DNA from: the human T2T-CHM13v2.0 reference genome, Homo sapiens
Assembly: GCA_009914755.4 (NCBI GenBank)
Contig: CP086569.2
Span: 448,001-512,000 of the forward strand
Direction: 5' to 3'
DNA length: 64,000 nt
Under the pieces are notes generated by a model. That model was not told where the DNA came from and did not search any database. It saw only the letters and a program-made list of their open reading frames with translations. Position numbers and translations under genes: made by a program. The stretch's first letter is position 1. Every line of letters begins with the position of its first letter. Shown here piece after piece: positions 20,490-22,400 of this stretch.

Positions 20490-22400
20490 TCAGAACTTCT
20501 TTTCCTCAAAGACATCATAGAAACTAGAATCCCTCTTCCCCAGCACGGGTCCTAGAAACAGGACCCCCCCAAGCCAGGCACTGTGGCTCACACCTGTAAT
20601 TCCAGCACTTTGGGAGGCCAAGGCAGGTGGATCACCTGAGGTCAGGAGTTCGAGACCAGCCTGGTCAACATGGTGAAACCCTGTCTCTAGTAAAAATACA
20701 AAAACTACCAGGCGTGGTGGCAGGCACCTGTCATCCCAGCTACCGGGGAGGCTGAGGCAGGAGAATCGCTTGAACTTGGAAGGCGGAGGTTGCAGTGAGC
20801 CGAGATTGTGCCACTGCTCTCCAGCCTGGGTGATGCAGCAAGACTCAGTCTCCAAAAAAAAAAAAGAAACAGGAGCTCTTTTCCCCCAAAGACATCATAG
20901 AAACTAGAATCCCTCTTCCCCAACATGGGTCCTAGAAACAGGAGCCCCCAAGCCGGGCACGGTGGCTCATGCCTGTAATCCCAGCTACTCGGGAGGCTGA
21001 GGCAGGAGAATCGCTTGAACTCGGGAGGCAGAGTTTGCAGTGAGCCAAGATCGTGCCACTGCACTCCAGCCTGGGTGACAGAGCAAGACTCAGTCTCAAA
21101 AAAAAAAAAAAAAAAAAGAGAAAGAAAGAAAGAAAAAAAAAGAAACAGGAGCCCTTTTTCCCCAAAGACACCAGAAAAACTAGAATCCGTCTTCCCCAAC
21201 AGGGGTTCTAGAAACAGGAGCCCCCAAGCCAGGCGCCGTGGCTCACACCTGTAATCCCAGCACTTTGGCAGACCAAGGCAGGTGGATCACCTGAGGTCAG
21301 GAGTTCGAGACCAGCCTGGTCAACATTGTGAAACCCTGTCTGTAGTAAAAATACAAAAACTCCCAGGCGTGGTGGCAGGCACCTGTCATCCCAGCTACTG
21401 GGGAGGCTGAGGCAGGAGAATCGCTTGAACTTGGAAGGCAGAGGTTGCAGTGAGCCGAGATTGTGCCACTGCTCTCCAGCCTGGGTGATGCAGCAAGATT
21501 CAGTCTCAAAAAAAAAAAGAAACGGGAGCTCTTTTTCCCCAAAGACACCATAGAAACTAGAATCCCTCTTCCCCAACATGGGTCCTAGAAAGAGGAGCCC
21601 CCAAGCCGGGCACGGTGGCTCACACCTGTCATCCCAGCACTTTGGCAGACCAAGGAGGGCAGATCACCTGAGGTCAGGAGTTCGAGACCAGCCTGGCCAA
21701 CATGCTGAAACCCTGTCTCTAGTAAAAATACAAAAACTCCCGGGCGTGATGGCGGACACCTGTCATCCCAGCTACCGGGGAGGCTGAGGCAGGAGAATCG
21801 CTTGAACTCGGGAGGCGGAGTTTGCAGTGAGCCAAGATCATGCCACTGCACTCCAGCCTGGGTGACAGAGCAAGACTCAGTCTCAAAAAAAAAAAAAAAA
21901 AAAAAAAAAAGAAAGAAAGAAAGAAAAAGAAACAGGAGCCCTTTTCCCCCAAAGACATCAGAAAAACTAGAATCCATCTTCCTCAACATGGGTCCTAGAA
22001 ACAGGAGCCCCCAAGCCGGGCGCGGTGGCTCACACCTGTAATCCCAGCACTTTGGGAGGCTGAGGCGGGCCGATCACCTGAGGTCACGAGGTCGAGACCA
22101 GACTGGCCAACATGGTGAAACCCCGTCTCTACCAAAAATAGAAAAAATAGCCGGGCGTGTTGGTGAGCACCTGTAATCCCAGCTACTCGTGAGGCTGAGG
22201 CAGGAGGATCGCTTGAACCCGGGAGGCGGAGGTTGCAGTGAGCCAGGATCACACCACTGCGCTCCAGCCTGGGCGACTGAGCAAGAGTCAGTCTCAAAAA
22301 AAAAGAAAGAAACAGGAGCTGTTTTCCCCCAAAGACACCAGAGAAACAAGAATTCCTCTTCCCCCATATGGATCCTAGATACAGGAGCCCCTTTTCCCCA
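20490..22400 (+). repeat. Macrosatellite-like tandem array: 5 Alu copies, each followed by the same spacer of about 80 bp (period about 385 bp)
   Basis: Spacer gaaacaggagc.cttttcccccaaagaca.ca.a.aaactagaatcc.tcttcc.caaca.gggtcctagaaacaggagcccccaagcc recurs at about 20480, 20869, 21150, 21520, 21930 and 22300, each followed by an Alu (20573, 20946 [internally deleted, about 170 bp], 21231, 21606, 22011). Confidence 0.85.

What the first reader, a model, noticed from the sequence alone, without database searches (positions are those of the whole stretch)
20490..22400. Five tandem copies of an (Alu + 80-bp spacer) unit: an Alu-seeded macrosatellite with one copy carrying an intra-Alu recombination deletion
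Each Alu (+ orientation) is followed by the same non-Alu spacer of about 80 bp (gaaacaggagc.cttttcccccaaagaca.ca.a.aaactagaatcc.tcttcc.caaca.gggtcctagaaacaggagcccccaagcc). Copies alternate between two subtypes, suggesting a dimeric higher-order unit of about 690-770 bp duplicated at least twice. One subtype has cctgtcatcccagc and gtgatgcagcaagact. The other has gagtttgcagtgagccaagatc and a (GAAA)n-decorated tail. The second copy (20946-21118) has lost about 130 bp exactly between the two homologous cctgtaatcccagc sites of the left and right Alu monomers.
Basis: seen in the sequence. Interest (0 to 1): 0.5.

Follow-up and report, generated by a model that had tools for sequence, protein, structure and literature searches.

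The report
Tandemly amplified Alu-plus-spacer array upstream of SHOX
One Alu element that landed inside an older 69-bp tandem repeat about 14 kb upstream of the SHOX start codon was copied with its flank to five head-to-tail units; this is an ordinary by-product of misaligned exchange in the repeat-rich pseudoautosomal region.

Summary
Window 20486-22377 holds five head-to-tail units of 380, 276, 377, 410 and 380 bp. Each unit is a 69-bp non-Alu unit, a 17-18-bp junction piece, an AluS-like element and an A-rich tail.

The spacers are exactly in register at 86 bp. Copies 1-4 form two AB dimers at offsets of 655 and 787 bp. Copy 2 lacks 134 bp, exactly between the left- and right-monomer CCTGTAATCCCAGC blocks.

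- The array was founded by the 69-bp repeat, not by the Alu. Alu-free 69-bp units flank the array, and every interior spacer is a hybrid of the right-flank and left-flank units. This is the signature of an in-register exchange between the two 69-bp units around a single Alu insertion.
- There are only two dimers (one duplication) plus a divergent, CpG-rich edge copy, A5, which belongs to neither subtype.
- At 1.9 kb it is a small transposon-derived composite tandem repeat, not a macrosatellite in the usual sense.

The window is the SHOX locus in pseudoautosomal region 1 and holds at least seven other Alu-derived tandem arrays. It is a new member of a known kind with no evidence of function. 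Copy-number polymorphism and ape orthologues could not be tested.

The parts
20417..20554 (+). Two Alu-free, diverged 69-bp units (r-1 20417-20485, r0 20486-20554). They are the left remnant of the old 69-bp tandem repeat. r0 is the upstream partner of the founding exchange.
   Evidence: r0 is 74-84% identical to r1-r5 and r-1 is 66-72% identical to r0-r5; interior spacers are r0-like at positions 40, 46, 57, 59 and 64.
20555..20572 (+). Junction piece J0 (GAAACAGGACCCCCCCAA). It is the 5' copy of the target-site duplication in front of A1.
   Evidence: The same 17-nt piece (GAAACAGGAGCCCCCAA) precedes A2, A3 and A5 (J3 differs by one base). It equals the first 24 nt of the 69-bp unit minus 7 nt.
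20573..20865 (+). Alu copy A1 (type A; body 20573-20852) plus a 13-nt tail (C followed by 12 A).
   Evidence: A1+A3 clade has 100% bootstrap support.
20866..20951 (+). Spacer 1: hybrid 69-bp unit r1 plus J1.
20952..21141 (+). Alu copy A2 (type B; body 20952-21098, 147 bp). It has a 134-bp internal deletion whose junction lies within CCTGTAATCCCAGC at 20972-20985. The tail is A19 followed by GAGAAAGAAAGAAAGAAAAAAAAA.
   Evidence: A2-A4 are 96.7% identical in the right half.
21142..21227 (+). Spacer 2: r2 plus J2.
21228..21518 (+). Alu copy A3 (type A) plus an A10 tail.
21519..21604 (+). Spacer 3: r3 plus J3.
21605..21928 (+). Alu copy A4 (type B in its 3' half, mosaic in its 5' half) plus a tail of A25 followed by GAAAGAAAGAAAGAAAAA.
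21929..22014 (+). Spacer 4: r4 plus J4.
22015..22308 (+). Alu copy A5, the divergent edge copy. It has 16 CpG against 6 in A1 and A3. Its tail is A8 GAAA.
   Evidence: Confirmed in an independent contig, L001.
22309..22420 (+). r5 (22309-22377) and degenerate r6 (22378-22420). r5 is the original downstream 69-bp unit, beginning with the 3' target-site duplication, and is the downstream partner of the founding exchange. r6 is an older Alu-free unit.
   Evidence: r5 is 83-88% identical to r1-r4 and r6 66-70%; interior spacers are r5-like at positions 4-21.

Best explanation
This is a neutral structural feature, not a machine. The proposed history has five steps.

1. A short tandem repeat of a 69-bp unit already existed here. 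The site is 13.8 kb upstream of the SHOX start codon in pseudoautosomal region 1.
2. One AluS-type element retrotransposed into a unit after its 24th base. This duplicated GAAACAGGAGCYCTTTTYCCCCAA as the target site. The 5' copy then lost 7 nt, or the target-site duplication was only 11-12 nt plus 6 filler bases.
3. A misaligned but in-register homologous exchange joined the 69-bp unit upstream of the Alu (r0) to the unit downstream (r5). It duplicated [69-bp unit + junction + Alu + tail] and created a hybrid r5/r0 spacer.
4. Further unequal exchanges, now in the 380-bp register, produced first two diverged types (A and B) and then a duplication of the AB dimer. The right-hand founder survives as the divergent edge copy A5. 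Gene conversion between copies made them mosaic.
5. Later, misalignment of the left and right Alu monomers at their shared CCTGTAATCCCAGC removed 134 bp from A2. The A-tails of the B type grew a (GAAA)n microsatellite.

Shown here: the anatomy, the register, the hybrid spacers, the clades and the deletion junction. Inferred: the order and timing of events, meiotic unequal crossing-over as the exchange process, and neutrality.
For: Periodicity and unit structure.

Target-site duplication: each Alu is flanked by GAAACAGGAGC...CCCCAA on both sides and carries an A-tail.

Old 69-bp repeat: Alu-free units at 66-84% identity flank the array, whereas interior spacers are 88-96% alike.

Hybrid spacers: r1-r4 are r5-like at 7 of the 9 r0/r5 diagnostic positions between 4 and 21 in all four spacers, and at an eighth in three of four. 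They are r0-like at 5 of the 7 between 40 and 64. Every spacer is exactly 69 nt. The duplication junction therefore lies in homologous sequence and is in register.

Local origin of A1-A4:
- Shared derived non-CpG states (CTAGT, ACT-CCC) in A1, A3 and A4, and AACTYGG in all four.
- Bootstrap support of 100% for A1+A3 and 95% for A1+A3+A4, against 24 other Alus from the window.

Order of events, from non-CpG differences:
- A1-A3: 7 of 236.
- A4 against A1 or A3: 14-15 of 237.
- A5 against the others: 24-25 of 237.
- Each copy against the consensus: 14-16.

Dimer: the offsets 655 and 787 share more 11-mers than the monomer offsets, and the spacers alternate at positions 12, 33 and 35.

Deletion junction.

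Regional context:
- The window is the SHOX locus. The spliced 292-aa product is exactly SHOX_HUMAN.
- At least seven other Alu-derived tandem arrays lie in the same 64 kb. They include 130-132-bp arrays, which are the reciprocal duplication product of the same monomer misalignment.
- Sister arrays differ in copy number between this window and chimpanzee: 5.2 against about 18-20 copies of the 132-bp unit.
- The literature reports that Alus and newly found satellite arrays are enriched in pseudoautosomal region 1 (bioRxiv 10.1101/2022.12.01.518724). It also reports that composite arrays arise by unequal crossing-over (bioRxiv 10.1101/2021.07.12.451456).
Against: - On its Alu sequence alone, A5 is no closer to A1-A4 than to unrelated Alus (bootstrap 32%; nearest neighbour is the Alu at 22813-23082). 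Its common origin rests only on the identical 17-nt junction, insertion point and 5' end.
- A5 keeps 16 CpG against 6-10 in the other full-length copies. A single origin needs an added assumption to explain this, such as protection by the neighbouring GC-rich region or gene conversion from another Alu.
- The copies are mosaic, so the tree and the relative dates are approximate.
- A2 differs from A4 at 5 of 45 positions around the deletion junction but at only 2 of 107 elsewhere (Fisher p = 0.024). A simple late intra-element deletion does not predict this.
- The putative 24-nt target-site duplication requires a 7-nt deletion in its 5' copy.
- Nothing here distinguishes meiotic crossing-over from replication slippage or template switching.
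- No allelic or orthologous copies of the whole array could be obtained.
Confidence: 0.85

Rival explanations
1. Same array and same single insertion, but amplified by replication-based mechanisms rather than by meiotic unequal crossing-over. Candidates are slipped-strand mispairing, template switching, or unequal sister-chromatid exchange in the mitotic germline.
For: The products are indistinguishable in sequence. An in-register homologous junction is expected under both. PMC3389668 lists slippage and unequal crossing-over as alternative initiators of transposon-derived tandem repeats.
Against: There is no direct evidence against it. The setting in pseudoautosomal region 1, and the many other arrays in the window, fit a recombination-driven process, but only as a correlation. 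No PRDM9 13-mer motif lies in the array. The window has 6 matches against 3.8 expected.
Confidence: 0.25
2. A5 is a separate Alu, or its interior was overwritten. Either it inserted independently at the same position of a neighbouring 69-bp unit, or gene conversion from an unrelated Alu replaced its interior. The array proper would then be A1-A4.
For: A5 does not cluster with A1-A4 (bootstrap 32%). It shares at most 2-3 non-CpG derived states with them. It retains 16 CpG against 6-10. It lacks every derived state that unites A1-A4.
Against: J4 is identical to J1 and J2, including the 7-nt gap relative to the 3' copy. The Alu starts at the same base (GCCGGGC after CCCCAA) and sits at the same position in the 69-bp unit. 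An independent insertion would not reproduce all of this. Spacer r4 in front of A5 is an r5/r0 hybrid like the others. Few derived states are shared with the neighbouring Alu at 22813-23082, so that element is not an obvious donor. Gene conversion of the interior cannot be excluded.
Confidence: 0.1
3. Five independent Alu insertions into a target-site hotspot that recurs in each unit of the 69-bp repeat.
For: The insertion point (CCT/AGAAAC) loosely resembles the L1 endonuclease site and recurs in every unit.
Against: A1, A3 and A4 share derived non-CpG substitutions and an indel absent from 24 other Alus in the window, with bootstrap support of 95-100%. A2 and A4 share GAGTTTGCAG, CCAAGATC and the (GAAA)n tail. 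The spacers co-vary with the Alus in an AB pattern. The Alu-free units r-1, r0 and r6 show the site is not always hit.
Confidence: 0.02
4. The array is a functional cis-element whose copy number matters. It could be an enhancer, silencer or insulator, or a recombination hotspot, acting on SHOX.
For: Position only: 13.8 kb upstream of the SHOX start codon, next to a GC-rich segment at 24-26 kb.
Against: The copies diverge at the rate of other Alus in the window (9-12% from consensus, against 6-18% for the others). There is free CpG decay in A1-A3, a 134-bp deletion tolerated in one copy, no RNA family hit and no literature on it.
Confidence: 0.04

Closest known systems
Transposon-derived tandem repeats (minisatellites and satellites derived from Alu and other elements; Ahmed & Liang 2012, PMC3389668)
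   Same: Local head-to-tail duplication of a unit that contains Alu sequence. Copies are more like each other than like Alus elsewhere. Expansion was stepwise over evolutionary time. Initiation is attributed to direct repeats flanking the duplicated segment, through unequal crossing-over or slippage.
   Different: That catalogue required at least 95% identity between units and mostly found partial-Alu units with two copies. Here the unit holds a whole Alu plus 86 bp of non-Alu DNA, the copies are only 77-87% alike by Tandem Repeats Finder, and the flanking direct repeats are 69-bp paralogous units rather than 5-20-bp repeats.
Composite repeat arrays of the telomere-to-telomere human repeat annotation (Hoyt et al., bioRxiv 10.1101/2021.07.12.451456)
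   Same: The core unit is built from a transposable element plus other repeat subunits plus simple repeat. It is arranged in tandem and attributed to unequal crossing-over. It evolves as a single unit with higher-order structure.
   Different: Those curated composites are much larger (kilobase units, long arrays), and some capture exons. This array is 1.9 kb in total. Whether it is on the curated composite track was not checked.
HSat1B / DYZ2 satellite of Yq12 (bioRxiv 10.1101/2022.12.01.518724)
   Same: A tandem unit consisting of an old Alu subunit plus non-Alu segments, amplified as a whole. The Alu subunits are said there to derive from pseudoautosomal Alus.
   Different: DYZ2 has a unit of about 2.5 kb, megabase scale, more than 98% homogeneity, an AluY fragment, and lies in heterochromatin. 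Here the array has units of about 380 bp, five copies, 4-15% divergence, full-length AluS-like elements, and lies in euchromatic pseudoautosomal DNA.
Alu recombination-mediated deletion and duplication between the two Alu monomers (general knowledge of Alu-Alu unequal homologous recombination; not checked in a paper here)
   Same: The A2 deletion removes exactly one monomer period (134 bp) at the shared CCTGTAATCCCAGC. The reciprocal product, arrays with a 127-132-bp period, is present in the same window (19283-19589, 46423-46654, 60915-61608).
   Different: Classical recombination-mediated deletions join two separate Alus and remove the DNA between them. Here both breakpoints lie within one dimeric element, or between misaligned copies of the array.
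SVA and LAVA composite retrotransposons
   Same: Alu-related sequence joined to a variable-number tandem repeat.
   Different: Those elements are mobile and dispersed, and the tandem repeat lies inside one element. Here nothing suggests mobility. No second copy of the spacer occurs in the window or in three sequence collections, and the whole element is the repeat unit.

Membership tests
Transposon-derived / composite tandem repeat | Two or more head-to-tail copies of a unit that contains transposable-element sequence | tested here: met
   Five units of 276-410 bp, each with an Alu.
Transposon-derived / composite tandem repeat | Units arose by local duplication: copies are closer to each other than to other copies of the element | tested here: met
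   Met for A1-A4: bootstrap 100% for A1+A3 and 95% for A1+A3+A4, against 24 other Alus in the window. For A5 the Alu body is inconclusive (32%), but the junction and spacer are shared. Only Alus from this window served as outgroups, not the whole genome.
Transposon-derived / composite tandem repeat | Composite unit made of three or more kinds of repeat (transposable element, simple repeat, other subunit), as defined in the telomere-to-telomere repeat papers | tested here: met
   The unit is a 69-bp repeat subunit, an Alu, and an A-rich or (GAAA)n tail. The definition is quoted (section 29).
Transposon-derived tandem repeats as catalogued by Ahmed & Liang | At least 95% similarity among units of the array | tested here: not met
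   Tandem Repeats Finder gives 77% and 87% matches, and pairwise segment identities are 80-98%. The array would not have entered that catalogue, although it is of the same kind.
Macrosatellite | Very large unit (usually taken as about 1 kb or more) in long, often highly polymorphic arrays. This definition is from general knowledge. PMC3389668 calls any unit over 100 bp a 'satellite'. | tested here: not met
   Units are 276-410 bp and the array is 1.9 kb. It meets only the looser '>100 bp satellite' definition. Polymorphism was not testable.
Higher-order repeat | Copies one higher-order period apart are more alike than adjacent copies | tested here: met
   In the right Alu half, A1-A3 are 97.6% and A2-A4 96.7% identical, against 90-92% for adjacent copies. 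The spacers show 95.3% and 93.0% against about 90%. The 11-mer offsets 655 and 787 exceed 377 and 410. There are only two dimers, and A5 is outside the pattern.
Alu insertion by target-primed reverse transcription | Target-site duplication flanking the element, and a 3' A-tail | tested here: met
   GAAACAGGAGC(7-nt gap)CCCCAA lies 5' of every Alu and GAAACAGGAGCYCTTTTYCCCCAA lies 3' of it, and every copy has an A-tail. The 5' copy is 7 nt shorter.
Alu insertion by target-primed reverse transcription | L1 endonuclease-type nick site (TT/AAAA on the top strand) at the start of the target-site duplication | tested here: inconclusive
   The site reads CCT/AGAAAC, a partial match only. The consensus is from general knowledge.
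AluS subfamily | Diagnostic positions of AluS against AluJ and AluY | tested here: inconclusive
   All copies read GATCACCTGAGGTCAGGAGTTCGAGACCAGCCTGGCCAACATGGTGAAACC, like the majority consensus of 24 Alus in the window. That matches the AluS consensus as I remember it. No Dfam or RepeatMasker run was possible.
Mobile composite retrotransposon (SVA-like) | Dispersed copies of the whole composite, each with its own target-site duplication | tested here: not met
   The spacer occurs nowhere else in the window (family D4). There was no match to the junction pattern in three collections, but none of these is a human genome.

The most novel reading that the evidence does not exclude
The array is a copy-number-variable element in the SHOX upstream region. 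Its length could modulate SHOX promoter activity, or mark or fuel a pseudoautosomal crossover or instability hotspot. The inverted Alu 500 bp downstream could add hairpin-driven fragility. It would then contribute to variation in stature or to recurrent SHOX-region rearrangements.
Probability: 0.04. Interest if true: 0.6.

Novelty: new member of a known kind. Interest (0 to 1): 0.15.

Why it matters
Its main value is as a clean worked example. The hybrid spacers preserve the junction of the founding in-register exchange between two 69-bp repeats, and so show step by step how a passenger Alu becomes part of a tandem repeat.

Practically, a 1.9-kb array of 85-98% similar units close to SHOX can mislead short-read mapping, copy-number probes and PCR design in a clinically tested region. 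It is also a plausible length polymorphism.

It does not open a new biological question. The broader point is that this 64-kb stretch of pseudoautosomal DNA is packed with Alu-derived tandem arrays. That agrees with published statements that Alus and new satellite arrays are enriched in pseudoautosomal region 1.

Tried and rejected
- Scans for the 28-nt spacer/Alu junction pattern in metagenome, prokaryote-genome and viral contigs found nothing.
- Exact look-ups of five open reading frames... in fact four were tried: those spanning the array on the minus strand. One hit was found, the 901-bp contig L001 covering A5 and the right flank. Three found nothing.
- Fetching ape and human chromosomes through the SHOX protein timed out twice.
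- A third try returned the chimpanzee locus L002. Its gene range starts at the start codon, so the 10-kb flank stops short of the array, and no array flank matched.
- A protein homology search with the spacer/right-flank reading frame found nothing.
- Rfam found only two Alu-as-SRP hits elsewhere in the window.
- The PRDM9 13-mer motif is absent from the array and not enriched in the window (6 matches against 3.8 expected).
- Gene conversion of A5 from the adjacent inverted Alu was considered. Few derived states are shared, so it is not supported.
- Independent insertions, assembly artefact and a mobile composite were considered and rejected (see the rival explanations and membership tests).
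- Literature searches for a described repeat or Alu array upstream of SHOX found none.
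Full report

Tandem Repeats Finder reports a period of 377 (3.2 copies, score 1269) and a period of 410 (2.0 copies, score 1261) across 21133-22391. The repeat finder reports a five-member family with start-to-start spacings of 379, 276, 377 and 410. It also reports a 300-nt pair at offset 787 with 92% identity, and a seven-member 40-nt family that marks the spacers.

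In a dot-plot of shared 11-mers over 20400-22500, the strongest offsets are 655 (175 words) and 787 (144). Next come 377 (125), 1032 (110) and 410 (76).

**Anatomy.**

Each unit has four parts:
- a 69-bp non-Alu unit;
- a 17-nt junction piece, GAAACAGGAGCCCCCAA (18 nt in front of A1);
- an Alu that starts at GCCGGGC;
- an A-rich tail.

| Copy | Alu body | Length | Tail |
|---|---|---|---|
| A1 | 20573-20852 | 280 bp | 13 nt (C + A12) |
| A2 | 20952-21098 | 147 bp | 43 nt with (GAAA)n |
| A3 | 21228-21508 | 281 bp | 10 nt |
| A4 | 21605-21885 | 281 bp | 43 nt with (GAAA)n |
| A5 | 22015-22296 | 282 bp | 12 nt |

The unit lengths are 380, 276, 377, 410 and 380 bp. Every interior spacer is exactly 86 bp. 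The 69-bp cores r1-r4 are 88-96% identical to one another.

**The 69-bp repeat is older than the array.**

Alu-free 69-bp units flank the array on both sides. On the left are r-1 (20417-20485) and r0 (20486-20554). On the right are r5 (22309-22377) and a degenerate r6. Their identities to the interior units are only 66-88%. The 69-bp repeat is therefore older than the Alu-containing array and extends beyond it.

The junction piece J equals the first 24 nt of the 69-bp unit (GAAACAGGAGCYCTTTTYCCCCAA) minus 7 nt. The full 24 nt follow every A-tail. This direct repeat around each Alu, together with the A-tail, is the hallmark of one retrotransposition into a 69-bp unit.

**How the array was founded.**

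At the 18 positions where r0 and r5 differ, the interior spacers behave as follows:
- Positions 4-21: r5-like at 7 of 9 diagnostic positions in all four spacers, and at an eighth in three of four.
- Positions 40-64: r0-like at 5 of 7 diagnostic positions.
- Positions 30 and 33: mixed.

The interior spacers are thus r5/r0 hybrids and are exactly in register. This is what an exchange between the 69-bp unit upstream of the Alu and the unit downstream would leave behind. A non-homologous tandem duplication would be in register only about once in 69 times.

The Alu was a passenger, and the homology that seeded the array lay in the 69-bp repeat. Once two 380-bp units existed, whole-unit misalignment could do the rest.

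**Relationships of the copies.**

I aligned the five copies with 24 other near-full-length Alus from the same window and built neighbour-joining trees with bootstrap resampling:
- A1+A3 form a clade in 100% of replicates.
- A1+A3+A4 form a clade in 95% of replicates (A2 excluded because of its deletion).
- A1, A3 and A4 share derived non-CpG states that are absent from the consensus of the other Alus: CTACT to CTAGT, and ATTAGCC to ACT-MCC. AACCCGGG to AACTYGG is shared by all of A1-A4.
- A2 and A4 share GAGTTTGCAG, CCAAGATC and the (GAAA)n-decorated tail.

Segment identities give the AB-AB pattern:

| Comparison | Identity |
|---|---|
| Right Alu half, A1-A3 | 97.6% |
| Right Alu half, A2-A4 | 96.7% |
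| Right Alu half, between types | 90-92% |
| Spacers before A2 and A4 | 95.3% |
| Spacers before A3 and A5 | 93.0% |
| Spacers before adjacent copies | about 90% |

The array is therefore two AB dimers, 20573-21227 (655 bp) and 21228-22014 (787 bp), followed by a fifth copy.

**The fifth copy.**

A5 does not group with A1-A4 on its Alu sequence (bootstrap 32%). Its nearest neighbour is the unrelated inverted Alu at 22813-23082.

Non-CpG differences:

| Pair | Differences |
|---|---|
| A5 against A1, A3 or A4 | 24-25 of 237 |
| A4 against A1 or A3 | 14-15 of 237 |
| A1 against A3 | 7 of 236 |
| Each copy against the consensus | 14-16 |

A5 keeps 16 CpG, against 6 in A1 and A3 and 10 in A4.

Three features tie A5 to the others:
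- its junction piece is identical to J1 and J2;
- the Alu starts at the same base;
- the spacer in front of it is an r5/r0 hybrid like the rest.

I read A5 as the right-hand founder copy. On this view it split off soon after insertion and, sitting at the edge, escaped later homogenisation. Edge copies being the most divergent is a usual feature of arrays that evolve by unequal exchange (general knowledge). Overwriting of its interior by gene conversion from another Alu cannot be excluded. Few derived states are shared with its inverted neighbour.

**Relative timing (inference).**

I treat non-CpG changes as a rough clock and the 14-16 changes from consensus as the time since insertion:
- The A/B split falls at about half of that time.
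- The dimer duplication falls at about three quarters.
- The A5 split falls within roughly the first fifth.

AluS elements are usually dated to some 30-40 million years (general knowledge). The last duplication would then be of the order of the African-ape radiation. Gene conversion makes these figures soft.

**Mosaicism.**

- A3 and A4 share GGCAGACC, which A1 lacks.
- A4 carries GTCATCCC in both monomers.
- A2 keeps CATGCC and TACTCGGG. These cannot be derived in one step from the CACACC and TACCGGGG of its sister A4.

Of the seven A2/A4 differences, five lie within 45 aligned positions around the deletion junction and two in the other 107 (Fisher p = 0.024). This could mean that the deletion arose in an exchange between two different array copies. 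It could equally mean that A4 was later converted by a type-A neighbour. I could not decide between these.

**The deletion in A2.**

Each full-length copy has two CCTGT(A/C)AT(C/T)CCAGC blocks, 134-135 bp apart. The left one is followed by ACTTTGG and the right one by TACYSGGG. A2 has a single block at 20972-20985, with left-monomer sequence before it and right-monomer sequence after it.

The reciprocal product of such misalignment is a tandem duplication of one monomer period. It is present elsewhere in this same window as arrays with periods of 127-132 bp:
- 19283-19589, 2.4 copies;
- 46423-46654, 1.8 copies;
- 60915-61608, 5.2 copies.

**Where this is.**

Five peptide stretches that I recalled from human SHOX all occur exactly in the window. 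The 292-residue protein spliced from 36200-36478, 39922-40131, 45957-46013, about 46135-46220 and 49468-49713 is identical to SHOX_HUMAN isoform a, a sequence shared by Homininae. It contains a homeodomain and an OAR motif.

The array's right end is 13.8 kb upstream of the start codon. By my memory of the hg19 coordinates it is about 7-9 kb upstream of non-coding exon 1. That figure is not verified.

SHOX lies in pseudoautosomal region 1. Published work reports that Alus, GA-microsatellites and previously unknown satellite arrays are enriched there (bioRxiv 10.1101/2022.12.01.518724).

The window bears this out. Besides the target it holds at least seven other Alu-derived tandem arrays, several long purine/pyrimidine and TA tracts, and two non-Alu minisatellites.

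The chimpanzee locus L002 does not reach the target, but it shows that the sister arrays are dynamic:

| Array | This window | Chimpanzee |
|---|---|---|
| 132-bp array | 5.2 copies | about 18-20 copies |
| 82-bp array | 14 copies | 15 copies |
| 27-bp array | 47 copies | 43 copies |

**Comparison with what is known.**

- Tandem repeats derived from transposable elements are a described class. They make up 23% of human mini- and larger satellites. Their initiation is attributed to slippage or unequal crossing-over between flanking direct repeats, and their expansion is stepwise (PMC3389668).
- Composite units of a transposable element plus other subunits in tandem, ascribed to unequal crossing-over, are also described (bioRxiv 10.1101/2021.07.12.451456).
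- The Y-chromosome satellite HSat1B/DYZ2 has an old Alu as part of its 2.5-kb unit.

The present array is a small, old, diverged member of this kind. It fails the 95%-identity criterion of the 2012 catalogue, and it fails the usual size notion of a macrosatellite. I found no paper that describes this particular array.

**What could not be done.**

No human genome, pangenome or ape assembly covering the array was reachable. Copy-number polymorphism, the orthologous state in other primates and the genome-wide uniqueness of the spacer remain untested. The only independent sequence is a 901-bp contig that confirms A5 and the right flank at 99.9%.

**Verdict.**

There is one dimer duplication plus an odd edge copy, and the array is too small to call a macrosatellite. 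It is an ordinary product of known processes and a new member of a known kind. Interest is low (0.15).

Noticed in passing
window 36200-49713 (+): The window is the SHOX gene. Coding exons lie at 36200-36478, 39922-40131, 45957-46013, about 46135-46220 and 49468-49713. They splice to a 292-aa product identical to human SHOX isoform a.
   Followed up: yes
window 60915-61608 (+); also 19283-19589 and 46423-46654: These are tandem arrays with a period of 127-132 bp, which is one Alu monomer period. That is the reciprocal duplication product of the left/right-monomer misalignment that deleted 134 bp from A2. The 132-bp array has 5.2 copies here and about 18-20 in chimpanzee (L002 34982-37678).
   Followed up: partly
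window 52259-53402 (-): A very homogeneous array of an 82-bp Alu-internal segment, with 14 copies at 97% identity. Chimpanzee has 15 copies at 94% (L002 26300-27526).
   Followed up: partly
window 44838-45701 (+), SHOX intron 3: A second whole-Alu tandem duplication (period 344 x1.9, overlapping a 231-bp period x1.8). The two Alus at 44858 and 45197 are sisters in the tree. Chimpanzee shows periods of 315 and 343 over about 970 bp, which may mean one more copy.
   Followed up: partly
window 9898-10946 (+) and 61797-62230 (+): Two further partial-Alu arrays. One has units of 163-196 bp from the Alu right half, about 6 copies. The other has 79-bp units made of the Alu 3' end plus 35 bp of non-Alu DNA, 5.5 copies at 93%.
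   Followed up: no
window 27926-29128, 31135-32575 and 33522-34893: A 1.2-kb AG-rich tract lies upstream, and two 1.4-kb CT-rich tracts lie downstream, of the position where I place SHOX exon 1 from memory. Together they form a large mirror purine/pyrimidine arrangement with potential to form triplex DNA. This fits the reported GA-microsatellite enrichment of pseudoautosomal region 1.
   Followed up: no
window 47825-49110 (+), SHOX intron 5: A GC-rich 27-bp minisatellite with 47 copies here and 43 in chimpanzee. It creates very long spurious reading frames on both strands.
   Followed up: no
window 3756-5743 (+): A non-Alu minisatellite of 34-bp units with 67- and 101-bp higher orders, 59 copies at 87-89%.
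   Followed up: no
window 11247-12199 and 41432-41935: Long, impure (TA)n tracts of about 950 bp and 500 bp.
   Followed up: no
window 22015-22312 (+) with 22788-23084 (-): A5 and the next Alu downstream form an inverted pair, 87-89% complementary, with arms about 480-720 nt apart. All five array Alus can pair with it. Closely spaced inverted Alus are considered unstable (general knowledge).
   Followed up: no
window 22015-22296 and 22813-23082, next to 24001-26000: A5 and the adjacent inverted Alu keep many CpGs (16 and 13), against 6 in A1 and A3. They sit beside a segment with 62% G+C. This could reflect a germline-unmethylated neighbourhood or GC-biased conversion.
   Followed up: partly
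window 20952-21010 (A2 junction region): Five of the seven differences between A2 and its sister A4 lie within 45 positions of the deletion junction (Fisher p = 0.024). A2 keeps ancestral states there (CATGCC, TACTCGGG) that A1, A3 and A4 have lost. This is unexplained. It may reflect an exchange between two array copies or later conversion of A4.
   Followed up: partly
SHOX gene ranges in other assemblies: The range from the start codon to the end of the gene differs among four human assemblies (27,157-27,932 bp) and three chimpanzee records (29,177-29,667 bp). This fits length variation of the intragenic tandem arrays.
   Followed up: no
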